Positions 39,501 to 55,598 of a stretch of 64,000 nucleotides of DNA are shown here, in pieces. Made by a program: the position numbers and the translations under genes. The notes beneath the pieces were generated by a model. It was not told the origin of the DNA. It searched no databases and was given only the letters and a program-made list of their open reading frames with translations. The stretch lies in the sequence record MZ501074. The stretch is one strand, 5' to 3'. Source of the DNA: Escherichia phage HildyBeyeler. Within the stretch, counting starts at the first letter, position 1. Every line of letters begins with the position of its first letter.

Positions 39501-39505
39501 TACCT

Positions 39506-40120: not shown

Positions 40121-40150
40121 AGTTATATAAATTGATGAAGGAGTTAACGA

Positions 40151-40426
40151 ATGCAAAATCGTGTTATAGCAACTGGTATTGAAAGTGCAATCTGTAAATC
40201 CTGGGAAGGCTGGGAAGGTGAGATTGAATGGCTTTATTTCTACGATGTAGAACTTCTGCCGGAAATTAAAGCTAAATGTGTTGAAGCTGGCATGGCTCCA
40301 GATGCAAAAGCTGATATTGATATTTCAATGTCTGAACTTAAAGGTCGTGTAGTTACCGTTAGTAATGAGGGCGAAGAAGTTTTTGAACTTCCGTTCTCCT
40401 TAGCTGTCACTCCTAAGTTCGACTAA
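40151..40426 (+). CDS. hypothetical protein (91 aa)
   Basis: Promoter 40091-40120 and GAAGGAG RBS. Confidence 0.5.
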   Translation: MQNRVIATGIESAICKSWEGWEGEIEWLYFYDVELLPEIKAKCVEAGMAPDAKADIDISMSELKGRVVTVSNEGEEVFELPFSLAVTPKFD

Positions 40427-40434
40427 CTAATACA

Positions 40435-40473
40435 GCACTGAGCAAGTCCTTTAAAATTTGACTTGCTCAGTGC
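40435..40473 (+). repeat. perfect 14-bp inverted repeat (GCACTGAGCAAGTC / GACTTGCTCAGTGC) with an 11-nt spacer
   Basis: Arms at 40435-48 and 40460-73 are exact reverse complements; the 3' arm contains the -35 of promoter 40463-91. Confidence 0.8.
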
Positions 40474-40491
40474 CTTAAAACTTGGTATAAT
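40463..40491 (+). promoter_or_regulatory. sigma70 promoter (TTGCTC, 17 bp, TATAAT); -35 lies in the 3' arm of a 14-bp palindrome
   Basis: Hexamers at 40463-68 and 40486-91. Confidence 0.6.
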
Positions 40492-40625
40492 AGTTATCTA
40501 ATTTGGAAAGTTCTTTTTAAGGTAGTTCTTACTTTAGCAGAGTAAACTTTCGGCAGATGGTGGCAGCCACTTTACCGATATTCCATAGTCAGTGCCGCAA
40601 ACACTGGCTACCTTAAAGAGAATTT

Positions 40626-40713
40626 GGGCGTTTATTCCGTAAGTGGTAGCGGAGGGGATTGTAAATCCCTGGTCATTGCGACTCGAGTGGTTCGACTCCA
40701 TTAACGCCCACCA
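40626..40713 (+). tRNA. tRNA-Tyr (anticodon GUA), long variable arm, CCA encoded
   Basis: Acceptor GGGCGTT/AACGCCC, anticodon arm GGGGA-UUGUAAA-TCCCT, extra arm, TTCGACT T-loop. Confidence 0.65.
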
Positions 40714-40721
40714 AATTTAAT

Positions 40722-40796
40722 GCACCTATCGTCTAATGGCTAGGACATCAGGATTTCAATCTGAGAATCGGAGTTCAATTCTCCGTGGGTGTACCA
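40722..40796 (+). tRNA. tRNA-Glu (anticodon UUC), CCA encoded
   Basis: Acceptor GCACCTA/TGGGTGT, anticodon arm TCAGG-AUUUCAA-TCTGA, T-arm CGGAG-TTCAATT-CTCCG. Confidence 0.7.
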
Positions 40797-40804
40797 ATTT
40801 CTGC

Positions 40805-40881
40805 ATTCCTAGAGTGTTACTGGACAGCATGTCGGTCTCCAAAACCGTACGGTCTAGGTTCGAGTCCTAGTAGGTTTGCCA
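40805..40881 (+). tRNA. probable tRNA-Trp (anticodon CCA), CCA encoded; 5' boundary uncertain
   Basis: Anticodon arm TCGGT-CUCCAAA-ACCGT, T-arm CTAGG-TTCGAGT-CCTAG, 3' G-CCA; acceptor has U-U mismatches. Confidence 0.5.
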
Positions 40882-40887
40882 AAATTT

Positions 40888-40962
40888 GCACCTTTAGCTG
40901 AGATGGATTAGCGCTTGCCTGAAGAGCTTGAGAGGTTGGATCGTTACCAACGGGGTGCACCA
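40888..40962 (+). tRNA. possible tRNA-Phe (anticodon GAA), CCA encoded; non-canonical T-loop
   Basis: Acceptor GCACCTT/GGGGTGC and D-stem GCTG/TAGC are clean; anticodon stem has two U-U mismatches; T-loop AUCGUUA. Confidence 0.4.
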
Positions 40963-40978
40963 AATTGAAGGAGCTGCT

Positions 40979-41252
40979 GATGCATCCTGAAAACTTCTTT
41001 ATTTACTGCGCGGATAAGTCGCTGAAACGTAGAATTAACAAAGTCTATCATTATCGTGCTAGTCAACAGCCTTATGTATACGCTTTTGACGGTGATCACA
41101 TTCCACTAGAACAATTATCTTGTGATTACATGATATTGAAGAACTTTGACGAGACGAAGATCTCAAGCGTTTATAATCGACAGAATCCATTAACGTGGAA
41201 ATATAAGAAGAAAAAGAAAGGCATCAAATTCTTAAAAAATATAGTTGCTTAG
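40979..41252 (+). CDS. hypothetical protein (~90 aa)
   Basis: GAAGGAG RBS 5 nt before the ATG at 40979; the track ORF starts at an upstream TTG. Confidence 0.45.
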
Positions 41253-41273
41253 TTTCCAAAAGTTCTGTATAAT
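41245..41273 (+). promoter_or_regulatory. sigma70 promoter (TTGCTT, 17 bp, TATAAT)
   Basis: Hexamers plus AATTACATAAATTGAACTGGAG box; precedes tRNA-Cys. Confidence 0.65.
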
Positions 41274-41321
41274 AATTACATAAATTGAACTGGAGAAGCA
41301 ACATGATAGAACAAGATAAAT

Positions 41322-41397
41322 CGACCGTTGGCTGAATGGCTTAGGCGAAGGATTGCAAATCCTTTTTATGTGAGTTCAAATCTCATGCGGTCGTCCA
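41322..41397 (+). tRNA. tRNA-Cys (anticodon GCA), CCA encoded
   Basis: Acceptor CGACCGT/GCGGTCG, anticodon arm AAGGA-UUGCAAA-TCCTT, T-loop TTCAAAT. Confidence 0.75.
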
Positions 41398-41399
41398 AT

Positions 41400-41540
41400 T
41401 TGCTGAAAGAATTGTTAAATCAATTCAGGCACGCGTAGGAACACTGTCTCCGTAATTGAAAGATGAGGCACGGTTTGGAGAGGTATGCCGCTACACGCTA
41501 CGGTGCTAACTCCGTCTAGGTGAAAATCCTAGTCAGCAAT
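41400..41540 (+). ncRNA. candidate structured RNA (141 nt) with tRNA-like termini
   Basis: TTGCTGA at 41400-06 pairs perfectly with TCAGCAA at 41533-39; CTAGG-TGAAAAT-CCTAG hairpin sits just before the 3' strand; D-arm-like GAAT/ATTC near the 5' end; no ORF. Confidence 0.35.
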
Positions 41541-41549
41541 GTAAATTTA

Positions 41550-41635
41550 GGGTCGTTGGCTGAACGGTTTAAGCGCCGGACTGTTAATCCGTATCCGCAA
41601 GGATAAAGTAGGTTCAACTCCTACACGGCCCGCCA
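41550..41635 (+). tRNA. tRNA with anticodon GUU (Asn-type) but a long variable arm, CCA encoded
   Basis: Acceptor GGGTCGT/ACGGCCC, 3-bp D-stem, anticodon loop CU-GUU-AA, 15-nt extra arm with GCAA loop, T-arm GTAGG-TTCAACT-CCTAC, G73. Confidence 0.55.
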
Positions 41636-41737
41636 AATTCTGTGTAGAGTTAAGTAAACCGGTAGCCAACCAGCTATCATTGCTGACATCGAATTCAGCC
41701 ACAGATACCATTTTCATTAATAACTAAGGAAACAAGC

Positions 41738-41923
41738 ATGTCCAAGAATGTGATTGCGCAGCTAGAAGTTCATCGTGATAGCACTATCAACAATATTAAG
41801 TGCCGACAAAAAGATATTGAAGCTCAAAAGGCTGATCTTTTAATGAGTATTCGAGAGCTTAATGTACGAAAAGAGTTTCTTAAAGAACTTAATGCAGCTA
41901 TTGAAAAACTCAAAGCTGAGTAA
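41738..41923 (+). CDS. hypothetical coiled-coil protein (61 aa)
   Basis: AAGGAAACAAG RBS. Confidence 0.45.
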   Translation: MSKNVIAQLEVHRDSTINNIKCRQKDIEAQKADLLMSIRELNVRKEFLKELNAAIEKLKAE

Positions 41924-41932
41924 ATGAATTAT

Positions 41933-42009
41933 GCGACCGGGGCTGGCTTGGTAATGGTACTCCCCTGTCACGGGAGGGAATGTGGGTTCAAATCCCATCG
42001 GTCGCGCCA
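41933..42009 (+). tRNA. tRNA-Asp (anticodon GUC), CCA encoded
   Basis: Acceptor GCGACCG/CGGTCGC, anticodon arm CTCCC-CUGUCAC-GGGAG, T-loop TTCAAAT. Confidence 0.7.
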
Positions 42010-42026
42010 GATAAGGTAGGTTAGCT

Positions 42027-42185
42027 ATGGAACGTAGGGAGTTTACTCCAGAAGAGATAGAGCAGATAAAAGAATCTGCTATGAAAAATGCTAGAATATC
42101 TCTGTCACTGGAAGGTATCATTATTAGTGATGTAAACTTTGAAAAAATCAAAGCCATAGCTGATGAACTGGAAAAAGTAATTTAA
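42027..42185 (+). CDS. hypothetical small protein (52 aa) between tRNA-Asp and tRNA-Lys
   Basis: AAGGTAGG RBS; sequence MERREFTPEEIEQIKESAMKNARISLSLEG...; below the ORF-track cutoff. Confidence 0.4.
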   Translation: MERREFTPEEIEQIKESAMKNARISLSLEGIIISDVNFEKIKAIADELEKVI

Positions 42186-42186
42186 T

Positions 42187-42262
42187 ACATCCATAGCTCA
42201 ATGGTTAGAGCTACCGCCTCTTAAGCGGAGGGTTCTAGGTTCAAGTCCTAGTGGGTGTACCA
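42187..42262 (+). tRNA. tRNA-Lys (anticodon CUU), CCA encoded
   Basis: Acceptor ACATCCA/TGGGTGT, D-stem GCTC/GAGC, anticodon loop CU-CUU-AA, T-arm CTAGG-TTCAAGT-CCTAG. Confidence 0.7.
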
Positions 42263-42292
42263 AACAAACTAAACTAGCACGAGAAATATGCT

Positions 42293-42640
42293 ATGATTAA
42301 TGCTAAAGAAGAATTGTTACTTGCCCTAAAGAATACTAATTCTGAAGTTAAGTGTATTAAGATAGAATTCGGTTATTATGGGGACAAAGAAGTTTTGGTA
42401 TTACCCATAGGTTACACAGAAAAAGATATTGAAGATTTTCTAAATAATCTAGACTTTAAATATGATTCTGGTTTCGGTGGACAATTGCTTTATGGTAACG
42501 TATGGTTTACTGATGGAACTTGGTTAGAACGTGGTGAATATGATGGTTCTGAATGGTGGGAATATAAGACTACACCAGCAATTCCAGAGGAATGCCGAAC
42601 AATTAATGGTGAAGTAGATCGTACTTTACTATTAAATTAA
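42293..42640 (+). CDS. hypothetical protein (115 aa)
   Basis: ORF track. Confidence 0.5.
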   Translation: MINAKEELLLALKNTNSEVKCIKIEFGYYGDKEVLVLPIGYTEKDIEDFLNNLDFKYDSGFGGQLLYGNVWFTDGTWLERGEYDGSEWWEYKTTPAIPEECRTINGEVDRTLLLN

Positions 42641-42762
42641 CAAAATCTCAGTGCAGAACACGGAGCTAGCAATTCGGAAATGCTGACTCATGATAAGCTG
42701 CCTATGTACTTGCGAAGCGGTCGTGTCCAAGACTCGGACTCTTGCACTGAAAACAATCAAAC

Positions 42763-42883
42763 ATTCTAGCGTGGTTGATGGGGAAACCAGCTTGGCTAGG
42801 GCAGAAGCTCGTTCGATTCGAGTGAAAGAATGGTTCTCGTAAGTCCGCACAAGTGATAACAGGTTCGAGTCCTGTCTAGAATG
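42763..42883 (+). ncRNA. candidate structured RNA (121 nt) with tRNA-like termini
   Basis: ATTCTAG at 42763-69 pairs perfectly with CTAGAAT at 42876-82; T-arm-like ACAGG-TTCGAGT-CCTGT before the 3' strand; internal GCTCG-TTCGATT-CGAGT hairpin. Confidence 0.35.
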
Positions 42884-42897
42884 ACACTATAAAGTTT

Positions 42898-43012
42898 ACT
42901 TATTATGTAGGTTCCGATAGACCGGCGGGTCTATTCTGGCATTTAAGAGAGGTCTCGCAAACTTCTTTGTCAGCCGTGGGGTTGATAGCCCCCAGGTGGC
43001 CTACACAATAAG
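42898..43012 (+). repeat. 14-bp inverted repeat (13 of 14 pairs) enclosing about 87 nt of hairpin-rich sequence
   Basis: ACTTATTATGTAGG at 42898-911 pairs with CCTACACAATAAGT at 42999-43012; internal hairpins ATAGACC/GGTCTAT and GGGG/CCCC. Confidence 0.65.
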
Positions 43013-43032
43013 TAAATTTATGAAAAATGTAG

Positions 43033-43061
43033 TTGCTATTTAGCTTAATTCTCTGTATAAT
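43033..43061 (+). promoter_or_regulatory. sigma70 promoter (TTGCTA, 17 bp, TATAAT)
   Basis: Precedes HNH gene 43094-43669. Confidence 0.65.
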
Positions 43062-43093
43062 ATATTCTATAAAGTGAAGAGAAGGAAAGCAAA

Positions 43094-43669
43094 ATGGAAG
43101 GATTTAAACCAATACCCGAGTATCCAGAATACTTAGTATCTGAGAAGGGAGAAATATACTCCACTATCAGTAATAAATATTTAAAACCTACCATAAACGG
43201 GAGCGGCTATTACCACTTTGCAGTACGTGAAGATACTAATGAGTATAGATGGCTTCTGCTGCACAGAGTTATATGCAGGGTTTATGGTAATCTCCCCTCT
43301 TTAGATAGTGAAATGGAAGTAGATCATAATGATTGTAATAGGCTTAATATACTCCCTAGTAATTTAGTTGCCAGAGAGAAGAAAGATCATTACGATAAAA
43401 CTACACTGGAGAGAGGAAAAACTATAGGGGGCACTAGATGTATAGTCTGTAATAAGAGGATACACTCTGGTCGAGAATACTGCATAAATTGCAGTCCAGT
43501 TAAACAGACTAAATCCCCAGAGATTACCGCAGAACAGATAGAATATTGGGTATCAAAGTATTCCTGGACTAGAGCTGCAAAAGAGTTAAATTTATCTGAT
43601 AATGGTCTACGAAAACGGTATACTAAATTAACAGGTAAATCCCCAAAAGAAATTAAAAAATCAGGGTAA
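43094..43669 (+). CDS. HNH homing endonuclease (191 aa)
   Basis: HNH motif EVDHNDCNRLNILPSNL and zinc-ribbon CIVCNKRIHSGREYCINC; last 8 nt overlap the 5' end of tRNA-Pro. Confidence 0.75.
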   Translation: MEGFKPIPEYPEYLVSEKGEIYSTISNKYLKPTINGSGYYHFAVREDTNEYRWLLLHRVICRVYGNLPSLDSEMEVDHNDCNRLNILPSNLVAREKKDHYDKTTLERGKTIGGTRCIVCNKRIHSGREYCINCSPVKQTKSPEITAEQIEYWVSKYSWTRAAKELNLSDNGLRKRYTKLTGKSPKEIKKSG

Positions 43670-43739
43670 GGGCGATAAGGTACGCCACCTCGTTTGGGGC
43701 GAGGAAATCTTTAGAGTTCGAATCTCTATACCCTGACCA
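43662..43739 (+). tRNA. tRNA-Pro (anticodon UGG), CCA encoded
   Basis: Acceptor CAGGGTA/TACCCTG, D-stem GGCG/CGCC, anticodon arm CCTCG-UUUGGGG-CGAGG, T-loop TTCGAAT. Confidence 0.75.
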
Positions 43740-43745
43740 AACAAT

Positions 43746-43821
43746 TGCGGGTGGGAGGCATAGAGTTCTTCTTAGTCTCATAAGCTAAGTAAGTCCAGGG
43801 CAGTACTGGAACCCGCTACCA
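43746..43821 (+). tRNA. tRNA with anticodon CAU (Met/fMet/Ile2-type), non-canonical T-loop, CCA encoded
   Basis: Anticodon arm TTAGT-CUCAUAA-GCTAA, T-arm TCCAG-GGCAGTA-CTGGA, acceptor 6 bp with a U1-U72 mismatch. Confidence 0.45.
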
Positions 43822-43839
43822 ATTTCAAGAAAAACGCAG

Positions 43840-43868
43840 TTGCTTAATGCTTAATTTCTTGTTATAAT
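43840..43868 (+). promoter_or_regulatory. sigma70 promoter (TTGCTT, 17 bp, TATAAT)
   Basis: Hexamers plus ATTTATATAAATTGATG box; followed by about 330 nt with no ORF. Confidence 0.65.
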
Positions 43869-44204
43869 ATTTATATAAATTGATGCGAAAATAGCTGCCT
43901 AGATACCAGGTGTATGACGTCTACACTAGCAGAGCTACCGAAAAAGAGATCCCCAGGATAAACGTCGTAGCAAAATTAGTCTGGTATCCATCAATTTAGT
44001 TCACTAAGGTATTAGCTCGACCTAGGACTGGCTGCCAAAAAGCACGATCCCTACGATTCGGGAGAAGTTCTAGATTAGTCCACTAGATTCAGCGGCAACT
44101 GAATAGTGTATTGGGTTTGCGAGATGACGCAGTTCCTTCCGCTCGAAGCGAAGGTGCTGTAGTTACGCCGAGCTAATAGCCTTAGTAAACTAGAAGGAAT
44201 ATCT

Positions 44205-44468
44205 ATGTTTGATCTGAAAGATATGGCTAAAAAGTTAATGTCGCAACGCTATCAACAAAGAACACTCCATAAACGAGTTTCCGATATGAAAAAACGTTGC
44301 AATAATGCTAAATATTATAATAGTCTTAATAAACTATCTGATGCAGATCTTGTTAAAACTGAAGCAATATATAATCACTTAGCAGTAGAGTATGATATAG
44401 TGAATAAAGATATTGCTAGGCTAGAAGCTCAGATTGTAGCAACTGTACTTGACATGTACAGGGAATAA
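44205..44468 (+). CDS. hypothetical protein (87 aa)
   Basis: GAAGGA RBS. Confidence 0.5.
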   Translation: MFDLKDMAKKLMSQRYQQRTLHKRVSDMKKRCNNAKYYNSLNKLSDADLVKTEAIYNHLAVEYDIVNKDIARLEAQIVATVLDMYRE

Positions 44469-44479
44469 ATAAAGAATTT

Positions 44480-44558
44480 GGGGGATGGGTCTGCTGGGAG
44501 TGGACACCTCGCTTGCACCGAGGACATCAGAACGATTCGAATTCGTTATCCTCCACCA
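44480..44558 (+). tRNA. tRNA-Ala (anticodon UGC), CCA encoded
   Basis: Acceptor GGGGGAT/ATCCTCC with G3-U70, anticodon arm CCTCG-CUUGCAC-CGAGG, T-loop TTCGAAT. Confidence 0.7.
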
Positions 44559-44563
44559 AATAC

Positions 44564-44640
44564 GCGTGATTGATGGAATTGGCATACATACCGTCCTTAG
44601 AAGTCGGGTTTTGAGGGTTCGAATCCCTTGTCACGCACCA
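44564..44640 (+). tRNA. tRNA with anticodon UAG (Leu-type) but short variable arm, CCA encoded
   Basis: Acceptor GCGTGAT/GTCACGC, anticodon loop CU-UAG-AA, T-arm GAGGG-TTCGAAT-CCCTT, A73. Confidence 0.55.
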
Positions 44641-44764
44641 AATTTGATGGTCAGAGTAAATTAAACCTACTATCTCGGTTGAGCTGTTTTAATGGGTTCG
44701 AATCCCAGCGAGGCGTAACTGCCTGGTGTGATAGAGGCATCATTCCACTAATATTGGAAAACTA

Positions 44765-44995
44765 ATGAAACGAAAATTAAAAAAATCTTATATAATTAAG
44801 ATAAATAAGCTAAGAAGTAGGGCAAAAGGATGGCCACTTCGGATATTAATTGCGGATAACCATATTAGATACCATGCGGAACAACGTCATTATAAACAGT
44901 GGGAGTCATACTGCCGCTCAAAAGCAGGTCGTTTAGATGGATCTTATGAGTTTCTATTTGGTAAGAAGCCTACTAGAGTAGCTTTAGGTAATTAA
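44765..44995 (+). CDS. hypothetical basic protein (76 aa)
   Basis: ORF track. Confidence 0.4.
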   Translation: MKRKLKKSYIIKINKLRSRAKGWPLRILIADNHIRYHAEQRHYKQWESYCRSKAGRLDGSYEFLFGKKPTRVALGN

Positions 44996-45000
44996 TACTT

Positions 45001-45091
45001 GGAAGAGCAAATCGAATTGGCGACGAAAACCGCTTGGAAAGTGGCTGACCGGTAAAACGGCTTGAGAGTTCAAATCTCTCCTCTTCCGCCA
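45001..45091 (+). tRNA. tRNA-Ser (anticodon GGA), long variable arm, CCA encoded
   Basis: Acceptor GGAAGAG/CTCTTCC, anticodon loop UU-GGA-AA, 18-nt extra arm, T-arm GAGAG-TTCAAAT-CTCTC, G73. Confidence 0.65.
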
Positions 45092-45103
45092 AACAATTTA
45101 TAT

Positions 45104-45198
45104 GGTAGGTCAATCCAACGGCTGGCGCTGGACTCCGACTTGAAATCGGTTGATCGTAGTGATACGGTGTAAGGGTTCGATCCCCTTACCTACCTCCA
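45104..45198 (+). tRNA. tRNA-Ser (anticodon UGA), long variable arm, CCA encoded
   Basis: Acceptor GGTAGGT/ACCTACC, anticodon arm CCGA-CUUGAAA-TCGG, long extra arm, T-arm AAGGG-TTCGATC-CCCTT. Confidence 0.6.
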
Positions 45199-45450
45199 AA
45201 TCTTGAAGTATGCCGGAATCGGTAGACGGGGCTGCCTAAAAGGTTTATAGGGAACATCCACTCCCTGCAACATACCTCATAAAGCGGCTGAGATAAATGG
45301 TCTATCTCGTGAAGGTTCAAGTCCTTCTGCTTCTTGATACATCTATGGCTCAAAGTGTAACGGTGCTATTTGATGCTCTTGGTAAGACTTCCCCGACATG
45401 CGTTCGGGAGTAAGCTGCTAAGACTAGAGTAGAAGAGTTTCTGAGAGCCG

Positions 45451-45568
45451 CCACAATTGAAAATTCGTACTCGTCTTGAGCTGCGTGCAATAGGAGATAA
45501 CTTGATTAGTATTCTAGAACATGCTAATTGAGGATGGTTTCGCTAACCCTGCGAGTTTTCAATTGTGG
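45451..45568 (+). repeat. 13-bp perfect inverted repeat (CCACAATTGAAAA / TTTTCAATTGTGG) enclosing about 92 nt
   Basis: Arms at 45451-63 and 45556-68; the 3' arm runs into the acceptor stem of tRNA-His. Confidence 0.75.
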
Positions 45569-45641
45569 CTATATCATAATTGGTTAATGATCCTGATTGT
45601 GAATCAGGCCTATGTGGATTCGAATTCCACTAGCCACCCCA
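45565..45641 (+). tRNA. tRNA-His (anticodon GUG), CCA encoded
   Basis: Acceptor GTGGCTA/TAGCCAC, D-stem TCAT/ATGA, anticodon arm CCTGA-UUGUGAA-TCAGG, T-loop TTCGAAT. Confidence 0.75.
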
Positions 45642-45666
45642 AATTAACTTAAATAGGAAATAAAAT

Positions 45667-45864
45667 ATGGCTGATTTCTGCAAACAATGCTCCATTGATA
45701 TGTGGGGCAGAGATACTGGTGATCTTTCTGGTTTGATTACAGAAGCCGAAGTCAAAGAAGGTTATGGTGCAGTTGTGGTTTGCGAAGGATGCGGAGTTAT
45801 TCGAGTAGATCATGAAGGCAAACGTTTAGAAGAACCGGAAAATTTAGGAGAAACAAATGAGTAA
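45667..45864 (+). CDS. hypothetical Cys-containing protein (65 aa)
   Basis: ATAGGAAATAAA RBS. Confidence 0.45.
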   Translation: MADFCKQCSIDMWGRDTGDLSGLITEAEVKEGYGAVVVCEGCGVIRVDHEGKRLEEPENLGETNE

Positions 45865-46093
45865 TGCTTTAATTAGTGAAATTATGTTAACACGTCTTGC
45901 AGAACTGCAAACTCTTCGAGATGAATCTCAGAATAACTTATCCTACCATAAACAGATGGTAGATACTCTTACTACTCGTATTGAAACTTACGAGCGTGAT
46001 ATTGCAGCATTACAAGCTCTTTTCTCCGTATCAGCACCAGATACGTTAGAACAGCCTGCTGTATCTCAGCCAGTAGAGACAGCATCTAGTTAA
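45857..46093 (+). CDS. hypothetical protein (78 aa)
   Basis: GGAG RBS; coupled to the upstream ORF. Confidence 0.45.
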   Translation: MSNALISEIMLTRLAELQTLRDESQNNLSYHKQMVDTLTTRIETYERDIAALQALFSVSAPDTLEQPAVSQPVETASS

Positions 46094-46102
46094 TAGCATT
46101 TT

Positions 46103-46178
46103 TGGAGTGTAGATCAATTGGCAGATCGTCGGCCTCTGACTCCGAAGGTTCCTGGTTCGATCCCAGGCACTCCAGCCA
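46103..46178 (+). tRNA. tRNA-Gln (anticodon CUG), CCA encoded
   Basis: Acceptor TGGAGTG/CACTCCA, D-stem GATC/GATC, anticodon loop CU-CUG-AC, T-arm CCTGG-TTCGATC-CCAGG. Confidence 0.7.
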
Positions 46179-46184
46179 AATAAT

Positions 46185-46260
46185 TGGAGAGTAGTGTAAC
46201 GGTTAGCACAACGGCCTTTGACTCCGTTAATGGTAGGTTCGATTCCTCCTTCTCCAGCCA
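46185..46260 (+). tRNA. tRNA-Gln (anticodon UUG), CCA encoded
   Basis: Acceptor TGGAGAG/TTCTCCA, D-stem GTGT/GCAC, anticodon loop CU-UUG-AC, T-loop TTCGATT. Confidence 0.7.
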
Positions 46261-46267
46261 AAATAAT

Positions 46268-46342
46268 GCGTGATTAGTTCAGTGGCTAGAACAACTGGCT
46301 TCCAACCAGTAGACACGAGTTCGACTCTCGTATCCCGCACCA
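46268..46342 (+). tRNA. tRNA-Gly (anticodon UCC), CCA encoded
   Basis: Acceptor GCGTGAT/ATCCCGC (one mismatch), D-stem GTTC/GAAC, anticodon arm ACTGG-CUUCCAA-CCAGT, T-arm ACGAG-TTCGACT-CTCGT. Confidence 0.7.
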
Positions 46343-46356
46343 AATAAGGAATCTCT

Positions 46357-46608
46357 ATGCACGTTTTTGAGTTTCGTAATAAAAGTACCAATAAACGAGT
46401 TATTGTTATTGGGGAAACATATCGAGCATATGAACAAACTGACGGCTCTGTTATCTTGAATGATGAGAAAGGGGGTTTTAGCTTTTATCCAGAAGAACCT
46501 TATGAAGAGTTTCGAAAACAATTTAACCTAGACTGGAGAAAGCATTTAAACACTGTTGCTTCATCTGTAGTACTGCCAACTACCAGTACTGTACTATCTA
46601 ATGGCTGA
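46357..46608 (+). CDS. hypothetical protein (83 aa)
   Basis: AAGGAAT RBS. Confidence 0.5.
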   Translation: MHVFEFRNKSTNKRVIVIGETYRAYEQTDGSVILNDEKGGFSFYPEEPYEEFRKQFNLDWRKHLNTVASSVVLPTTSTVLSNG

Positions 46609-46765
46609 TAACCTAAAAGTCAAGATCGACAAACAAAAGAAACGTGTAGAAGTAGAGATTGGTGAAGAACGTGTAGCCTTCACCTTTGAATTTCTACAAC
46701 AAATGGCAATGACAGTTATGACTGATAAGTCTCCTGTTATTGAAAAAGAAATCCCGTTGAAATAA
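46601..46765 (+). CDS. hypothetical small protein (54 aa)
   Basis: ATG overlaps the upstream stop (ATGGCTGA); hairpin follows; below the ORF-track cutoff. Confidence 0.4.
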   Translation: MADNLKVKIDKQKKRVEVEIGEERVAFTFEFLQQMAMTVMTDKSPVIEKEIPLK

Positions 46766-46773
46766 CGGGTTCT

Positions 46774-46860
46774 GCTGGGTTGGCAGAATGGTTGAATGCA
46801 CCTGATTTGTAATCAGGAGGAGTAATCCCGTTGCAGGTTCGAATCCTGTGCCCAGCACCA
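46774..46860 (+). tRNA. tRNA with anticodon UGU (Thr-type) but a long variable arm, CCA encoded
   Basis: Acceptor GCTGGGT/GCCCAGC, 3-bp D-stem, anticodon arm CCTGA-UUUGUAA-TCAGG, 15-nt extra arm with GTAA loop, T-arm GCAGG-TTCGAAT-CCTGT, A73. Confidence 0.55.
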
Positions 46861-46874
46861 ATTTAAGGACTATT

Positions 46875-47042
46875 ATGTTTAAACTGTTAGTAGTTATCTG
46901 GTATAGTCAATCAAATAGAGCGAATACCTCCCACGTTATAGACTTTACTACTAAAAATGAAGCTGAAAAAGCATATGCTAATTTAATAGAACGCAATAAA
47001 GAATCTCGTAGTATAGTTTATGAAGTGACTAAACTTTATTAA
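46875..47042 (+). CDS. hypothetical small membrane protein (~55 aa)
   Basis: AAGGA RBS before the ATG at 46875; the track ORF began inside the preceding tRNA. Confidence 0.45.
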   Translation: MFKLLVVIWYSQSNRANTSHVIDFTTKNEAEKAYANLIERNKESRSIVYEVTKLY

Positions 47043-47050
47043 AAATTCAT

Positions 47051-47079
47051 TTGCTTTCCCTCTTATTTATTGTTATAAT
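47051..47079 (+). promoter_or_regulatory. sigma70 promoter (TTGCTT, 17 bp, TATAAT)
   Basis: Hexamers plus ATTTATATAAATTAATGAGAGGG box. Confidence 0.7.
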
Positions 47080-47109
47080 ATTTATATAAATTAATGAGAG
47101 GGAAACCAA

Positions 47110-47400
47110 ATGAAACGTTATCTTTCTGTTATGTTCCAAACCGGCGGCCAAAGATACACCTATGAATTTCCACCTTCCTGGAAAATCAGGGAAGGTGATC
47201 AAATAGTTGTGTTGACACCGCGTGAAGAATATAAAGTAGTGACGGTTAAACAAGTATTTCCAAAAGATCATGAACCAGCTATAGGCATCCGATATAAGAT
47301 GATTCATGGCGTGGTTCGTCAAGTACCACGAACTGAGGTAGAAGTAGATAATACTGGAGAAACTAAATTCCATTATACTTCTTACTTAGACAGTGTGTGA
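47110..47400 (+). CDS. hypothetical protein (96 aa)
   Basis: Promoter 47051-47079 and GAGAGGG RBS. Confidence 0.55.
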   Translation: MKRYLSVMFQTGGQRYTYEFPPSWKIREGDQIVVLTPREEYKVVTVKQVFPKDHEPAIGIRYKMIHGVVRQVPRTEVEVDNTGETKFHYTSYLDSV

Positions 47401-47415
47401 TGTAAATATTTTAAT

Positions 47416-47491
47416 GCTTCGGTAGCTTAGCGATCTAAAGCACTCGGCTGATAACCGAGAGATCAGGGGTTTAAATCCCTCCCGGAGTACC
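47416..47491 (+). tRNA. tRNA-Ile (anticodon GAU), CCA encoded
   Basis: Acceptor GCTTCGG/CCGGAGT, D-stem GCTT/AAGC, anticodon arm CTCGG-CUGAUAA-CCGAG, T-loop TTTAAAT. Confidence 0.7.
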
Positions 47492-47510
47492 AAATCTAGG
47501 AATTAAGACT

Positions 47511-47594
47511 ATGCGTCCAGGAAAGTTTAAAAAAGCTAGTTGGTCTAAAGAGTACAAAGAATACTTACTTAGCCTAGTAAAACGTAATAGTTAG
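47511..47594 (+). CDS. hypothetical small peptide (27 aa) between tRNA-Ile and tRNA-Met
   Basis: AGGA RBS; 3' end overlaps the tRNA-Met 5' end by 2 nt. Confidence 0.25.
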
Positions 47595-47664
47595 TTGGCA
47601 GAGTGGTTATGCGCCTCCTTCATACGGAGCGACTACAGTGGTTCAAATCCACTACTAACTACCA
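47593..47664 (+). tRNA. tRNA-Met or Ile2 (anticodon CAU), CCA encoded
   Basis: Acceptor AGTTGGC/ACTAACT (one mismatch), anticodon loop UU-CAU-AC, T-arm AGTGG-TTCAAAT-CCACT; short D-arm. Confidence 0.55.
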
Positions 47665-49926: not shown

Positions 49927-50223
49927 GTGAAAAGACTAAACATCAACAGCACAGTGCAGATTCCAGCAACTAAGGATATTTTAACCTTCCTACGGAGTGA
50001 AAACGCTCAGTTTTGGCATGATCATGTTGTAAAGAACGGTAGTACTCCAGATGTAGTTGCCTTTGCTAAAAAACGTATCGAGGAGTACAAAGATCCAGAG
50101 ATTAAAGATGGTATGATTACTATGCAGTTGTGGGTAGCTATGCAAACCTTTGGCCCCACCATGTGTTTAGGAAATACTCCATTATTTACAAATATTTTAA
50201 TTAATGAAAAGGATTTGAAATGA
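49927..50223 (+). CDS. hypothetical protein (98 aa)
   Basis: ORF track. Confidence 0.45.
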   Translation: MKRLNINSTVQIPATKDILTFLRSENAQFWHDHVVKNGSTPDVVAFAKKRIEEYKDPEIKDGMITMQLWVAMQTFGPTMCLGNTPLFTNILINEKDLK

Positions 50224-50504
50224 TTGTTTCTCCATTTGCTCTTTGGTTCGTCATTGGGTCTATAGTTGCTATTTATAGTCTAATAGATGATTTATTCATC
50301 TCCAAGAATAAAGATGTGTTCTTATATGTTGCACACAAAACACGCCCATCAGACCTAGCACCTCTTGATGATAAAACGCTACTAAGATGTGCTAGAGCTG
50401 CAATATTTATTATGGATATTCTGCTAGGACCAGCATCTGTATTTTTCTATTACCGAAAAACTCGTAATATGAAAAAATTTAAAGCAGAAATGCAGAATAA
50501 CTAA
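50220..50504 (+). CDS. hypothetical membrane protein (94 aa)
   Basis: Hydrophobic N-terminus; ATGA start/stop overlap. Confidence 0.45.
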   Translation: MIVSPFALWFVIGSIVAIYSLIDDLFISKNKDVFLYVAHKTRPSDLAPLDDKTLLRCARAAIFIMDILLGPASVFFYYRKTRNMKKFKAEMQNN

Positions 50505-51113: not shown

Positions 51114-51794
51114 ATGAGGATTATTTCTAAGTTCGCCGATGTGTATGATCTGCAGAACAGTTTGTTTGACCCAGATCGTGTGTGGGAACGTAAAACTGAA
51201 GAGCTAACAATAAAAGCCCCAGATGATGACAACTATACGATCATGCAAGAACGTAGGATTGCTCGTATTGAGGGAAAGATTGGTTACTTTAAAATTTTGC
51301 CTTTCTTCCTAGCTGGGGAGATTTACTGGTTATACCACATTGATGTACTGGATACCCAAGTAAAAACCTTCAGTTTGGACGAGGCGTTAGAAATTTTGGA
51401 GGAGAAGGGATGGTCAACAGGGTTTTCTTTGCTAGACATAAATAGGGGGAAGCCAAAAGAGTCTATCTTAGCATGGCAAGAAGAAGTTACCCCCAAAGCT
51501 AAAGAAGCCTTAACTGAGTTAAGAGTACCCTTAGCAATTCTAGACTCAGTAGTTCCAAATGATAAAGATAACAATAAATACTTCAAGGTTATAACTAATC
51601 CACGCCTACACCTATCAGGAATACCGTGGCAGAGTGTGGAACCTAACTTATATCGACTGCACCAAAGAATCGAGCAGTATATTTGGGGTGTACTAGGAAC
51701 TGGTGAGCCTGATATGATTACTGTGTCAGATAAAGACCGCCTAGCAGCACATGGATTTGATACGGTTACGTCATTCAGGAATATGAAAAGATGA
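51114..51794 (+). CDS. hypothetical protein (226 aa)
   Basis: Promoter 51054-51082 and GAGGA RBS. Confidence 0.55.
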   Translation: MRIISKFADVYDLQNSLFDPDRVWERKTEELTIKAPDDDNYTIMQERRIARIEGKIGYFKILPFFLAGEIYWLYHIDVLDTQVKTFSLDEALEILEEKGWSTGFSLLDINRGKPKESILAWQEEVTPKAKEALTELRVPLAILDSVVPNDKDNNKYFKVITNPRLHLSGIPWQSVEPNLYRLHQRIEQYIWGVLGTGEPDMITVSDKDRLAAHGFDTVTSFRNMKR

Positions 51795-52234
51795 TAAAAA
51801 ACTTTATTAGTTCTCTATGGCAAGGTAAATGGTATATCCTGGGAGCAGGTCTAGCGATAGGCATCGGATTCGGTGCTTATCACTTAGTAGATAAAGTGGA
51901 GACTTTAGCAGGAGATCTTGCGGTAGCTACTAAAAAGATTTCTTCCCTAGAAACTTCCCTCAATAAGGTGAAAGCTGAAAGCGAACTTCGTGAGACTAGA
52001 ATGAATCAGTATTTCACAATGAATAATATTTCGCAAGCAGATCTAGACAAAAAGATTAAGCAGTTAGATAAAGCTCTTAGTCGCCAAGATATTATAGCTG
52101 CAAAGCCTGGATTGGTAACATTAATTGCTAAAAAGCAGAGTAAAGAATTTGAGGAGAGATTAGCATGTCTTTCTGGAAGTGTGGAATACTGCTCGCAGCC
52201 GCAATCACAATCACAGGCTGTGCACAAGAAATAA
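51791..52234 (+). CDS. membrane-anchored coiled-coil protein, candidate i-spanin (147 aa)
   Basis: N-terminal TM helix followed by a coiled coil; 3' end overlapped out of frame by a lipoprotein gene. Confidence 0.4.
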   Translation: MIKNFISSLWQGKWYILGAGLAIGIGFGAYHLVDKVETLAGDLAVATKKISSLETSLNKVKAESELRETRMNQYFTMNNISQADLDKKIKQLDKALSRQDIIAAKPGLVTLIAKKQSKEFEERLACLSGSVEYCSQPQSQSQAVHKK

Positions 52235-52518
52235 AGCCAGAGCCCTCTCATGAGCTACCAACAGCTCACGTAGATTGGCCTAAAGGACTTCAACCTTGTA
52301 GCTTTGACTTTAAGTTTGAAAAGAAAGTAGCTACAAATGGAGAAGAGGGCGTAGTAGTTGTTGTACCATATAAAGATTGGAATATGTTGGCAAAATGCCG
52401 TGAGGCAGAATATTCCTTTATTTCACGACTGACTAGTATGGTTTGCTTCTATCGCCAAGATTTACAAGAAAAACGTTGCTTAATTTACTATCCACCCATT
52501 AACAGTAGGAAAGATTAA
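52165..52518 (+). CDS. lipoprotein, candidate o-spanin (117 aa)
   Basis: Signal peptide with lipobox (AAAITITGC); GAGGAGAG RBS; starts inside the upstream gene in another frame. Confidence 0.4.
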   Translation: MSFWKCGILLAAAITITGCAQEIKPEPSHELPTAHVDWPKGLQPCSFDFKFEKKVATNGEEGVVVVVPYKDWNMLAKCREAEYSFISRLTSMVCFYRQDLQEKRCLIYYPPINSRKD

Positions 52519-53892: not shown

Positions 53893-53925
53893 GCCAGGGT
53901 TTAACGACCCTGGCCTTTCTTTTAT
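53893..53925 (+). terminator. intrinsic terminator after the ClpP-like gene
   Basis: GCCAGGGT-TTAACG-ACCCTGGC hairpin followed by CTTTCTTTT. Confidence 0.7.
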
Positions 53926-53986
53926 CTAAAATTCTTCTTGACAACGACATAATTTTGTGCTCCAAGTGTAACGTTTAAAAACCAAT

Positions 53987-54015
53987 TGAAATTTTCCTCC
54001 AAAATTAGTATAATG
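53987..54015 (+). promoter_or_regulatory. sigma70 promoter (TTGAAA, 17 bp, TATAAT) for the lysis genes
   Basis: Follows terminator 53893-53925; precedes the holin start. Confidence 0.55.
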
Positions 54016-54039
54016 GTACTGGTTAGAGGAGGTTACAAA

Positions 54040-54696
54040 TTGGAAAAGTTCTTACAATTATTAACAGTACTGCTCCAAGAAGCGAAAGACCCAGCATCGC
54101 TTCTTAAACGTCTGCTAACTATCTTAGTTGCTGTCATTATTTTCTTATTTGTTAGTAATACTAGTGAGGTGATGTCATTCTTAAAGACTTTCTCCACGTC
54201 TGCGGTTCTACAGGATGTTCAAACTCAAAGGATAAGTAATTTTCCTAACGTAGCTAGAGAAAAGAGCATGGTGCTTTTTTCCCAAACGGGTGCGGATGCT
54301 GTTTTTGTAGTCAAGTATAAACCCGATGCCATTAATGATTATTCTAACATTATTGCATGGGAAAGCAATGCGCAATTAGATAGGGCTGACTTGGCTGATA
54401 AAGCGGTAAATAAGACGTCTGAGCTATATAGACGTCACTTAGACGGCTTTAACTACGCATCGGATTTAAGTGTAAAAGTAAATAAATACATGGGGTTAAA
54501 TATACCTGCGTTTAAGAACGTTACTTTTAATTACATATACACTTGTCCGTATTTCAATCTAAACAATATCTATGCTGGATATATTGGTATTGCTTGGAAA
54601 GATAATCCTGTAGATACAGCTGATTCTGAACAGTTCAAGGAATATTTAGCAAAGCTCTGTTCCCCACAACAGAGATCTTTAGGTAGGTCAATATGA
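54040..54696 (+). CDS. hol: putative holin (~218 aa), TTG start
   Basis: AGGAGG RBS 7 nt before the TTG; N-terminal TM segment; immediately upstream of and coupled to the endolysin gene. Confidence 0.5.
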   Translation: MEKFLQLLTVLLQEAKDPASLLKRLLTILVAVIIFLFVSNTSEVMSFLKTFSTSAVLQDVQTQRISNFPNVAREKSMVLFSQTGADAVFVVKYKPDAINDYSNIIAWESNAQLDRADLADKAVNKTSELYRRHLDGFNYASDLSVKVNKYMGLNIPAFKNVTFNYIYTCPYFNLNNIYAGYIGIAWKDNPVDTADSEQFKEYLAKLCSPQQRSLGRSI

Positions 54697-55106
54697 GTTT
54701 TAAATTTAGTAAAAGAAGTTTAGATAGATTAAAGGGTGTTCATCCAGATTTAGTAAAAGTAACTCATAGAGCTTTAGAATTAAGCCCATATGATTTTACT
54801 ATTACAGAAGGATTACGTTCCTTAGAACAAAGCGCCCAAAATATTAAGAATGGAACCTCGTTTTTAAAAGACCCGAGCAAGTCAAAACACGTACAAGGGC
54901 TGGCTGTTGACTTTGCTCCTCTTAAAAATGGGGAGATTGATTGGAATGATTTAGAATCATTCAAATTAGTGGCAGATGCCTTCTTTAAGGCAGCAGAAGA
55001 GCTAGGAGTAAAGATTAGATGGGGTGGTGATTGGAACCAGAACGGAAGTTATAAGGATGAAATCCAACGTGGTACTTTTGATGGCCCACATATAGAATTG
55101 ATTTAA
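54693..55106 (+). CDS. lys: endolysin, L-alanyl-D-glutamate peptidase (137 aa)
   Basis: M15-family zinc-peptidase signature (HVQGLAVDF, WGGDW); 137 aa as in T5 endolysin. Confidence 0.75.
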   Translation: MSFKFSKRSLDRLKGVHPDLVKVTHRALELSPYDFTITEGLRSLEQSAQNIKNGTSFLKDPSKSKHVQGLAVDFAPLKNGEIDWNDLESFKLVADAFFKAAEELGVKIRWGGDWNQNGSYKDEIQRGTFDGPHIELI

Positions 55107-55181
55107 GTAAAATACGGCGGGAATACTCCCGCCTTTTTAGGCAAAGGGGGCTTTAATAACTTTTGAAGATAGGAGAAAGCC

Positions 55182-55598
55182 ATGTTTGCAGAACTATTCA
55201 CTACGATGCTGCTAGGTATCTGGAAAATAAGTCTAGTAGTATTCGTTTTAATAATAGTCTTTACTATCCTTGCACTAACTACCAGAAATATCTTATTAAT
55301 AAAGATTACTCATGGACTAGAGTATATAATTATGGGTTCATTCGGCGTTTGTAAATGCAATTGCCATAGAGATACGAAATATTGTTGGTTATGGATGGAA
55401 CTAGAGAATCCTATATCCATAGCTTTGGCTGTTTCATTCGGTATGATTCTTATGGCCCTTACTCTAGCATTAATACCTTTGATGTTAGCTGGGGGAGTTA
55501 CAGCGTATTTCACCCTTTTATCCCCGATACTTATGTACTCAATTTACCCAATAACTATGTATCTAGTTAGGAAAAGATTTATACATGCAGTAGATTAA
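55182..55598 (+). CDS. hypothetical multi-pass membrane protein (138 aa)
   Basis: AGGAGAAAG RBS; several hydrophobic helices. Confidence 0.5.
   Translation: MFAELFTTMLLGIWKISLVVFVLIIVFTILALTTRNILLIKITHGLEYIIMGSFGVCKCNCHRDTKYCWLWMELENPISIALAVSFGMILMALTLALIPLMLAGGVTAYFTLLSPILMYSIYPITMYLVRKRFIHAVD

What the first reader, a model, noticed from the sequence alone, without database searches (positions are those of the whole stretch)
51791..52518. An overlapping pair resembling i-spanin and o-spanin, 1.5 kb upstream of holin and endolysin
Gene 51791-52234 encodes an N-terminal TM helix plus a coiled coil. Gene 52165-52518 starts inside it in another frame and encodes a lipoprotein (signal peptide, lipobox ITGC). 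This overlapping architecture is characteristic of Rz/Rz1-type spanins. The o-spanin candidate is unusually large (117 aa) and Cys-rich, so the call is tentative.
Basis: partly seen in the sequence, partly recalled or inferred. Interest (0 to 1): 0.5.

Follow-up and report, generated by a model that had tools for sequence, protein, structure and literature searches.

The report
T5-type spanin gene pair, already known

Summary
ORF 51791-52234 (147 aa) has an N-terminal TM segment and a heptad-repeat helix. ORF 52165-52518 (117 aa) has a signal peptide, the lipobox ITGC and Ala at +2. They overlap by 70 nt in different frames.

Both are under strong purifying selection in their own frames (pN/pS 0.09 and 0.14; off-frame controls above 1.7).

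The window is a T5-like phage (Demerecviridae). The pair is orthologous to T5.045/T5.044, which have the same lengths and the same 70-nt overlap and are annotated as Rz-like spanins. Kongari et al. 2018 (PMC6139136) described this "T5 family" of overlapped spanins.

Both proteins fall in the same PHROG families as T4 PseT.3 and PseT.2 (phrog_739, phrog_812). Profile-profile comparison confirms homology (99.3% and 96.6% probability).

o-spanin C94 and C105 align with PseT.2 C87 and C98, which are essential in T4. C45 and C78 are an extra, co-varying pair.

The 117-aa size and four periplasmic Cys are normal for this family, not a reason for doubt. The pair is not a sequence homologue of lambda Rz/Rz1.

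Function in T5-like phages rests on homology, since I found no direct knockout. Verdict: already known, low interest.

The parts
51791..52234 (+). i-spanin gene (147 aa), orthologue of T5.045 and homologue of T4 PseT.3. Its ATG overlaps the stop of the upstream gene (ATGA).
   Evidence: ORF. phrog_739 at 3.6e-37. 88% identical to T5.045. hhalign against the PseT.3 group gives 96.6% probability, E 6e-10. pN/pS 0.094.
51830..51889 (+). Predicted N-terminal transmembrane segment of the i-spanin (residues ~14-33, WYILGAGLAIGIGFGAYHLV). Lys3 and Lys13 lie on the N-terminal side, consistent with an N-in/C-out orientation.
   Evidence: Hydropathy. The segment is nearly invariant in 21 T5-like phages. 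No dedicated TM predictor was available.
51896..51979 (+). Heptad-repeat (coiled-coil-like) helix of the i-spanin periplasmic domain, residues 36-63.
   Evidence: 8 of 8 a/d positions are hydrophobic; 7 of 2000 shuffles reach this. SpaninDB lists a coiled coil at residues 30-73 for the DT57C orthologue.
52166..52192 (+). i-spanin C-terminal Cys pair, C126 and C134 (motif LACLSGSVEYC). It is invariant in Demerecviridae i-spanins and absent from T4 PseT.3.
   Evidence: Alignment A3 has C126, G129 and C134 invariant. The T4-like sequences have no Cys.
52151..52156 (+). Shine-Dalgarno-like GAGGAG, 8 nt upstream of the o-spanin ATG and inside the i-spanin gene.
   Evidence: Sequence.
52165..52518 (+). 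o-spanin gene (117 aa precursor, 99 aa mature lipoprotein), orthologue of T5.044 and homologue of T4 PseT.2. Its stop overlaps the dNMP kinase start (TAATG).
   Evidence: ORF. phrog_812 at 4.3e-28. 92% identical to T5.044. hhalign against the PseT.2 group gives 99.3% probability, E 5e-20. All 64 database homologues carry PF26831. pN/pS 0.137.
52165..52221 (+). Lipoprotein signal peptide ending in the lipobox ITGC (52210-52221). Cys19 is the predicted lipidation site and +2 is Ala.
   Evidence: A lipobox is found in 64 of 64 family members, Cys19 is invariant, and the +2 residue is never Asp.
52165..52234 (+). 70-nt out-of-frame overlap of the two genes. The central part (52187-52224) is almost invariant among T5-like phages.
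   Evidence: T5 has the same 70-nt overlap, as does DT57C.
52297..52398 (+). o-spanin Cys45 (52297-52299) and Cys78 (52396-52398). This extra Cys pair occurs in the T5-like, Klebsiella-phage and Erwinia-like branch.
   Evidence: C45 and C78 co-occur in 7 of 7 sequences. In T4-like members the same columns hold Y/W and W.
52444..52479 (+). o-spanin Cys94 (52444-52446) and Cys105 (52477-52479) in the motif MVCFYRQDLQEKRC. They are equivalent to T4 PseT.2 C87 and C98.
   Evidence: Pairwise and profile alignments. C94 is present in 64 of 64 and C105 in 63 of 64. C87 and C98 are essential in T4 (Kongari 2018).
53893..53914 (+). Terminator-like hairpin between the Clp-like protease gene and the holin gene. 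It places the spanin/dnk/protease unit and the holin-endolysin unit in separate transcription units.
   Evidence: The T5 annotation has a terminator and promoter at the same place.
54040..54696 (+). Holin (T4 gpt-type, class III). The probable start is TTG 54040.
   Evidence: PF11031 Phage_holin_T at 4.3e-113. phrog_860. Start-site analysis.
54693..55106 (+). Endolysin with an M15 peptidase domain. By homology it is the T5 endolysin, which I recall as an L-alanyl-D-glutamate peptidase.
   Evidence: phrog_465 at 1.2e-57. PF13539 Peptidase_M15_4. Same position and length as the T5 lys gene.

Best explanation
The two genes encode the two-component spanin of a T5-like phage.

The 147-aa protein is a type II inner-membrane protein (N-in, C-out). 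Its periplasmic domain is largely alpha-helical with a coiled-coil segment.

The 117-aa protein is exported by Sec, lipidated on Cys19, cleaved by signal peptidase II and sorted by Lol to the inner leaflet of the outer membrane, because +2 is Ala rather than Asp.

The C-terminal parts of the two proteins bind each other. The resulting complexes span the periplasm and are threaded through the peptidoglycan mesh.

The T-type holin permeabilises the inner membrane and the M15 endolysin degrades the peptidoglycan. The complexes are then free to move laterally and change conformation, and they destroy the outer membrane, most likely by fusing it with the inner membrane. This is the last step of lysis.

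The conserved C94/C105 pair probably forms homotypic intermolecular disulfides in the o-spanin dimer, as in T4 PseT.2. C45-C78 probably forms an intramolecular staple. The i-spanin CX7C motif probably forms an extra disulfide, either dimerising or intramolecular.

Shown here: gene structure, sequence features, purifying selection, orthology to the T5 genes and homology to the T4 spanins. Inferred: localisation, complex formation, disulfide pattern and the fusion mechanism.
For: - ORFs and sequence features.
- Purifying selection in each gene's own frame only.
- The window is 96.6% identical to Salmonella phage Tennessee and 87-95% identical to more than 400 T5-like phages.
- Many of those records annotate the pair as i-spanin/o-spanin or Rz-like spanin.
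- T5.045/T5.044 have identical lengths and overlap. They are annotated as Rz-like spanins similar to T4 PseT.3/PseT.2.
- The window proteins and T4 PseT.3/PseT.2 hit the same PHROGs, 739 and 812.
- BLASTP against T4 PseT.2 gives 2e-06 and against PseT.3 gives 3e-06.
- hhalign gives 99.3% (5e-20) for the o-spanin and 96.6% (6e-10) for the i-spanin.
- All 64 database homologues share PF26831. They include the RB68/T4-type cluster and proteins named o-spanin or Rz1.
- Family-wide, the lipobox Cys is invariant, the +2 residue is never Asp, and C94 and C105 are conserved.
- The AF2 model has mean pLDDT 80, with the core at 83-95. It shows a beta-hairpin plus a long helix. Its best BFVD matches are other o-spanins and PseT.2 proteins.
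- T4 PseT.3/PseT.2 complement lambda RzamRz1am, and C87/C98 are essential (Kongari et al. 2018, PMC6139136).
- The same paper defines the T5 spanin family, overlapped by 70 bp.
- Synteny spanin-dnk-Clp-holin-endolysin is conserved as far as Mccorquodalevirinae and Priunavirus.
Against: - I found no direct genetic or biochemical test of the T5-family spanins in the searchable literature. Function rests on homology at about 25% identity to the T4 proteins.
- The genes sit in a separate transcription unit with dnk, not with holin and endolysin. T4 spanins are also unlinked from t and e.
- The TM segment is Gly-rich and just below the classical Kyte-Doolittle threshold (1.55 against 1.6).
- No SignalP, LipoP or TMHMM was available.
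- The disulfide assignments are inferred only.
Confidence: 0.93

Rival explanations
1. The pair is a membrane protein plus lipoprotein with a non-lysis role. Examples would be superinfection exclusion, receptor masking (as with the T5 lipoprotein Llp) or envelope remodelling early in infection. The resemblance to spanins would then be only architectural.
For: - The genes are co-transcribed with dNMP kinase in a unit separate from holin and endolysin.
- T5 is known to encode another lipoprotein, Llp, with a non-lysis role.
- I found no direct knockout data for the T5 genes.
Against: - Both proteins are full-length homologues of T4 PseT.3 and PseT.2, whose spanin activity was shown by complementation.
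- The functionally essential Cys pair is conserved.
- No other spanin candidate is annotated in the T5 region examined, 18-30 kb. T5 infects Gram-negative hosts, which require outer-membrane disruption.
Confidence: 0.04
2. The pair belongs to the lambda Rz/Rz1 sequence families, which is the literal reading of 'Rz/Rz1-type'.
For: - PHROG and RefSeq product names read 'Rz-like spanin'.
- The overall topology is the same: a TM protein plus an outer-membrane lipoprotein.
Against: - Neither protein gives a Pfam match to any Rz or Rz1 family at E <= 0.1.
- The o-spanin is predicted to be structured (beta-hairpin plus long helix). Kongari et al. 2018 describe lambda Rz1 as unstructured; that it is Pro-rich is my own recollection.
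- The gene is overlapped, not embedded.
- Homology is to T4 PseT.3/PseT.2.
Confidence: 0.02
3. One or both ORFs are chance open frames, for example the second ORF being an artefact of the overlap.
For: Short overlapping ORFs are common in AT-rich phage DNA. Several gene callers missed the o-spanin in related records, where it is annotated 'hypothetical protein' or not at all.
Against: - pN/pS is 0.09 and 0.14 in the proposed frames and above 1.7 in the other frames.
- The proteins are conserved at 35-45% identity in Klebsiella, Erwinia, Pectobacterium and Providencia phages, and at about 25% in T4-like phages.
- There is a strong Shine-Dalgarno sequence.
Confidence: 0.005

Closest known systems
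Phage T5 spanins T5.045 (i-spanin) and T5.044 (o-spanin); the 'T5 family' of Kongari et al. 2018 (T5, DT57C, EPS7, SPC35, AKFV33, FFH1, Stitch; Shivani and phiR201 as separated variants)
   Same: - Lengths are identical (147 and 117 aa).
- The 70-nt overlap and frame relation are identical.
- Neighbours are the same (dnk, Clp-like protease, holin, endolysin).
- Amino-acid identity is 88% and 92%.
- The lipobox is the same (ITGC) and all Cys are conserved.
   Different: Only allelic differences. The o-spanin N-terminus is MSFWKC rather than MFNWKL, and the i-spanin has LSGSVEYC rather than LTGNLEYC; both variants are shared with DT57C-type phages. The i-spanin cytoplasmic tail is of the MIKNFISS type. 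There is no homing-endonuclease insert, unlike Shivani and NR01.
Phage T4 PseT.3 / PseT.2 spanins (phrog_739 / phrog_812; PF26831 for the o-spanin)
   Same: - True sequence homologues.
- The i-spanin shares the AKPGLV motif.
- The o-spanin shares the H-x-x-WP motif, the beta-hairpin plus helix core and the C-terminal CxYRxxLxExxC pair, which is essential in T4.
- Both are unlinked from holin and endolysin. The holins are also homologous (gpt-type).
   Different: - The T4 genes are 'separated' (4-nt overlap), while here the overlap is 70 nt.
- The T5-type o-spanin is about 18 aa longer, with a C-terminal tail and a longer linker.
- It carries an extra C45/C78 pair where T4 has aromatic residues.
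- The T5-type i-spanin is 30 aa longer and has a C-terminal CX7C motif, while PseT.3 has no Cys.
Lambda Rz / Rz1 (and P2 LysB / LysC)
   Same: - The functional class is the same: a type II inner-membrane protein with coiled coil plus an outer-membrane lipoprotein, forming a periplasm-spanning complex stabilised by disulfides.
- The overlapped gene layout resembles P2 lysB/lysC.
   Different: - No detectable sequence relationship.
- Rz1 is fully embedded in Rz and is short; Kongari et al. 2018 describe it as unstructured. That it is Pro-rich is my own recollection.
- The o-spanin here is larger and predicted to be folded.

Membership tests
Two-component spanin (functional class, criteria of Summer 2007 / Kongari 2018) | The i-spanin has a single N-terminal transmembrane domain and a periplasmic, largely helical or coiled-coil domain. 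| tested here: met
   A hydrophobic segment lies at residues ~14-33. Heptad pattern at residues 36-63, 8 of 8 a/d positions, 7 of 2000 shuffles. SpaninDB records a coiled coil at 30-73 in the DT57C orthologue. No TMHMM or COILS program was available.
Two-component spanin (functional class, criteria of Summer 2007 / Kongari 2018) | The o-spanin has a lipoprotein signal peptide with a lipobox, and a +2 residue compatible with outer-membrane sorting. | tested here: met
   The N-terminus is MSFWKCGILLAAAITITGC|A. Lipobox Cys is invariant in 64 of 64 homologues, and +2 is A/S/T/N/G/V, never D. Actual lipidation cannot be tested here.
Two-component spanin (functional class, criteria of Summer 2007 / Kongari 2018) | The o-spanin gene is adjacent to, overlapping or embedded in the i-spanin gene, in a phage of a Gram-negative host. 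| tested here: met
   70-nt overlap in another frame. The nearest relatives infect Salmonella, Escherichia and Shigella.
Two-component spanin (functional class, criteria of Summer 2007 / Kongari 2018) | At least one periplasmic Cys is available for intermolecular disulfides. | tested here: met
   The i-spanin has 2 and the o-spanin has 4 periplasmic Cys. Kongari reports maxima of 6 and 4.
Two-component spanin (functional class, criteria of Summer 2007 / Kongari 2018) | The pair is required for outer-membrane disruption. Knockouts give spherical non-lysing cells in Mg2+, and the pair complements lambda RzamRz1am. | not testable with these tools
   This needs an experiment. It was shown for the T4 homologues. 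I found no data for T5-family genes.
T5 spanin family (Kongari 2018: at least 40% identity over at least 40% of the periplasmic domain) | Sequence identity to T5.045 and T5.044 above the family threshold. | tested here: met
   88% (i-spanin) and 92% (o-spanin) identity over the full length. Same gene order.
T4 PseT.3 family (phrog_739) | Significant profile match to the same family model as T4 PseT.3. | tested here: met
   Window i-spanin against phrog_739 gives 3.6e-37. T4 PseT.3 against phrog_739 gives 1.3e-37. hhalign gives 96.6% probability.
T4 PseT.2 family (phrog_812 / PF26831) | Significant profile match to the same family model as T4 PseT.2, with conservation of the essential C-terminal Cys pair. 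| tested here: met
   Window o-spanin against phrog_812 gives 4.3e-28. T4 PseT.2 against phrog_812 gives 5e-42. hhalign gives 99.3% probability. PF26831 is on all 64 homologues, including T4-type clusters. C94 and C105 align with C87 and C98.
Lambda Rz (i-spanin) and Rz1 (o-spanin) Pfam families | Profile match to the Rz and Rz1 models. | tested here: not met
   The Pfam scan of both proteins gave no Rz or Rz1 family at E <= 0.1.
Unimolecular spanin (T1 gp11 type) | A single protein with both an N-terminal lipobox signal and a C-terminal TMD. | tested here: not met
   The only hydrophobic segment of the o-spanin is the signal peptide. The C-terminus (CLIYYPPINSRKD) is polar. A separate i-spanin partner is present.

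The most novel reading that the evidence does not exclude
The T5-type complex may have a different covalent architecture from both lambda and T4 spanins. It carries an extra, co-varying o-spanin pair (C45/C78) and an invariant i-spanin C-terminal CX7C motif that T4 lacks. The motif lies across the start of the gene overlap (C126 at 52166-52168, C134 at 52190-52192). These could form a heterotypic i-o disulfide or a redox-gated latch. Co-transcription with dnk rather than with the holin could mean the complex is assembled early and held inactive. None of this is excluded by the data, and none of it is shown.
Probability: 0.1. Interest if true: 0.35.

Novelty: already known. Interest (0 to 1): 0.07.

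Why it matters
It matters little beyond correct annotation. The pair completes the lysis gene set (holin, endolysin, spanins) of this T5-like phage.

It also illustrates that o-spanin genes overlapping an i-spanin are still often left as 'hypothetical protein' or missed. Many of the related GenBank records listed do so.

The T5 family remains experimentally untested. A simple complementation assay would close that gap, but the expected result is not surprising.

Tried and rejected
- Pfam scan of both proteins: no significant family in the local copy. The precomputed tags of database homologues show PF26831, which that copy apparently lacks.
- NCBIfam: only sub-threshold noise (FtsL-like, 20.7 bits against a cut-off of 50) for the i-spanin, and nothing for the o-spanin or the T4 proteins.
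- First single-sequence search of the 5.8-billion protein set: only 4 close hits. The profile search was needed to reach T4-like members.
- Foldseek against PDB: no match better than E = 1.7, so no solved structure resembles this o-spanin fold.
- Literature search for T5.044/T5.045 locus tags: nothing. Summer et al. 2007 is not held.
The C45-C78 contact is inferred from covariation only.
- Rejected: a chance ORF, membership in the lambda Rz/Rz1 families, and a unimolecular spanin.

Full report
**Observation**

They are 51791-52234 (+, 147 aa) and 52165-52518 (+, 117 aa). They share 70 nt (52165-52234) in different frames.

The first protein has a Gly-rich hydrophobic segment at residues ~14-33. 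It also has a clean heptad pattern at residues 36-63: 8 of 8 a/d positions are hydrophobic, and 7 of 2000 shuffles reach that.

The second protein begins MSFWKCGILLAAAITITGC|A. That is an n-region Lys, a hydrophobic core, the lipobox ITGC and Ala at +2. GAGGAG lies 8 nt upstream of its ATG.

The i-spanin ATG overlaps the stop of the upstream gene (ATGA). The o-spanin stop overlaps the start of the dNMP kinase gene (TAATG). The genes therefore form a translationally coupled chain.

**Are they real genes?**

I compared the window with 20 colinear T5-like sequences from IMG/VR. Nei-Gojobori pN/pS is 0.094 for the i-only segment and 0.137 for the o-only segment in their own frames. In the two alternative frames it is 1.8-3.0.

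Within the overlap, variable sites cluster at the two ends. These are the o-spanin n-region and the last codons of the i-spanin. The central 38 nt (signal-peptide core plus lipobox) has a single variable site. Both ORFs are bona fide genes.

**What the window is**

The region is 96.6% identical to Salmonella phage Tennessee and 87-95% identical to more than 400 T5-like phages (Demerecviridae). A cluster of 21 tRNA genes lies upstream.

The local gene order is: unknown gene, i-spanin, o-spanin, dNMP kinase, Clp-like protease, terminator, holin (gpt type, PF11031 at 4e-113), M15 endolysin.

In the T5 reference genome the orthologues are T5.045 (444 nt) and T5.044 (354 nt). They overlap by 70 nt and are annotated 'Rz-like spanin, similar to T4 PseT.3/PseT.2'.

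Numerous related records annotate the pair as i-spanin/o-spanin. The same synteny holds in distant Demerecviridae: Pectobacterium DU_PP_V and My1, Providencia PR1, Klebsiella and Erwinia phages.

**Literature**

Kongari et al. 2018 (PMC6139136) define a 'T5 family' of two-component spanins. It has seven overlapped members (T5, DT57C, EPS7, SPC35, AKFV33, FFH1, Stitch; 70-bp overlap). It has two separated members (Shivani, phiR201), in which a ~700-bp GIY-YIG homing endonuclease gene splits the pair.

Their SpaninDB lists DT57C with a 147-aa i-spanin (coiled coil at 30-73), a 117-aa o-spanin and a 70-nt overlap. The Shivani genome announcement also names these genes as spanins. The finding is therefore already known.

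**Relationship to characterised spanins**

- The window proteins and T4 PseT.3/PseT.2 hit the same PHROGs. For phrog_739 the E-values are 3.6e-37 and 1.3e-37. For phrog_812 they are 4.3e-28 and 5e-42.
- Pairwise BLASTP gives 2e-06 and 3e-06.
- Profile-profile comparison gives 99.3% probability (E 5e-20) over the whole o-spanin. It gives 96.6% (E 6e-10) for the i-spanin.
- A profile search of 5.8 billion proteins returned 64 clusters. All carry PF26831, and they span T5-like and T4-like phages.
- Across these 64, the lipobox Cys is invariant, a lipobox is always present and the +2 residue is never Asp. C94 is present in 64 of 64 and C105 in 63 of 64.
- C94 and C105 align with PseT.2 C87 and C98. 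Kongari et al. showed both are essential, in a system where pseT.3/pseT.2 complement lambda RzamRz1am.
- Neither protein matches any lambda Rz or Rz1 Pfam family at E <= 0.1. 'Rz-like' is a functional label, not a statement of homology.

The size of 117 aa is the norm for this family. It lies inside the known o-spanin range, since SpaninDB has entries of 129-167 aa.

Four periplasmic Cys equals the maximum Kongari et al. recorded for o-spanins. Two of them are the conserved functional pair. The other two (C45, C78) co-occur in 7 of 7 sequences and replace a Y/W + W pair in T4-like members. This suggests a contact pair turned into an intramolecular disulfide.

The i-spanin carries an invariant C-terminal CX7C motif (C126, C134) that PseT.3 lacks.

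An AlphaFold2 model of the o-spanin has mean pLDDT 80 (core 83-95). It shows a flexible N-terminal linker, a beta-hairpin (50-55, 61-66), a long helix (69-96) and a short C-terminal helix. This resembles the beta-alpha organisation described for PseT.2.

The model has no PDB neighbour; the best Foldseek E-value is 1.7. Its best BFVD matches are other o-spanins and PseT.2 proteins.

**Mechanism (inferred from the family)**

- The i-spanin is anchored N-in/C-out in the inner membrane.
- The o-spanin is lipidated at Cys19 and sorted by Lol to the outer membrane.
- Their C-terminal regions bind, forming disulfide-stabilised complexes that span the periplasm through the murein mesh.
- After the holin triggers and the endolysin degrades the peptidoglycan, the complexes are released. 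They disrupt the outer membrane, probably by inner-outer membrane fusion.

Localisation, complex formation, disulfide pattern and the lysis phenotype were not and could not be tested here. I found no direct experiment on T5-family spanins.

**Context detail**

A terminator-like hairpin (53893-53914) and strong promoter-like sites precede the holin gene. The T5 annotation shows the same arrangement. The spanins are therefore transcribed with dnk rather than with holin and endolysin. In T4 the spanin genes are likewise not located near the holin (t) and endolysin (e) genes.

**Verdict**

The pair is a routine orthologue of the known T5 spanins, which belong to the T4 PseT.3/PseT.2 lineage. Novelty: already known. 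Interest: low.

Noticed in passing
L001 2698-3396 and L002 3222-3920 (Salmonella phages NR01 and Shivani); corresponds to window 52180-52191: In NR01 and Shivani a 699-nt ORF separates the two spanin genes. It carries T5orf172/MUG113 and treble-clef zinc-finger domains, consistent with a GIY-YIG-type homing endonuclease. A ~12-nt segment, CTTGGA(A/G)TACTG, is present on both sides of the insert. The i-spanin therefore keeps its last Cys codon and the o-spanin keeps its signal-peptide core. The window lacks the insert.
   Followed up: partly
window 51791-51832: The cytoplasmic N-terminal tail of the i-spanin occurs in three distinct variants among 21 T5-like phages: MIKNFISSLWQGKW, MRKWFVDLVWNNKM and (MD)LIQKLLSGIWxGKW. 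The rest of the protein is nearly invariant. This suggests recombination or mosaicism at the junction with the variable upstream gene, which in T5 is an HNH endonuclease.
   Followed up: no
window 52297-52299 and 52396-52398: o-spanin Cys45 and Cys78 co-occur in 7 of 7 sequences. In T4-like PseT.2 proteins the same alignment columns hold an aromatic pair (Y/W + W). This suggests a structural contact that became a disulfide in the T5-like branch.
   Followed up: partly
window 53986-54696: The longest holin ORF starts at TTG 53986 (236 aa). TTG 54040 has AGAGGAGG 7 nt upstream and gives the 218-aa size annotated in T5. A strong promoter-like site (53986-54014, 11 of 12 matches) lies inside the longer ORF, which favours the shorter start.
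   Followed up: partly
window 53893-53914 and 55116-55133: Terminator-like hairpins bracket the holin-endolysin pair. The spanin genes are in the upstream unit with dNMP kinase and a Clp-like protease, matching the promoter and terminator annotation of T5.
   Followed up: partly
window 36468-47664: A cluster of 21 tRNA genes lies here, all on the + strand. It includes a 74-nt gene that ARAGORN calls tRNA-Ser with anticodon ACT, an unusual anticodon and an unusually short length for a Ser tRNA.
   Followed up: no
L010 1201-1530 (Klebsiella phage Boggle_ER46); L013 797-1249 (Providencia phage PR1): There are annotation slips in relatives. The Klebsiella o-spanin is called from an internal start (156 nt), which loses the lipobox. 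The Providencia i-spanin is called without its TM segment, although the frame is open upstream and encodes one.
   Followed up: partly
window 52165-52518 (protein-level): Database homologues are all tagged PF26831. The local Pfam-A copy returned no family for this protein, so that copy apparently lacks the model.
   Followed up: no
window 55182-55598 and 50220-50504: Small, conserved membrane-protein genes of unknown function flank the lysis region. One is phrog_5944, the orthologue of T5.039, whose T5 annotation gives four TM domains. The other is DUF7176.
   Followed up: no
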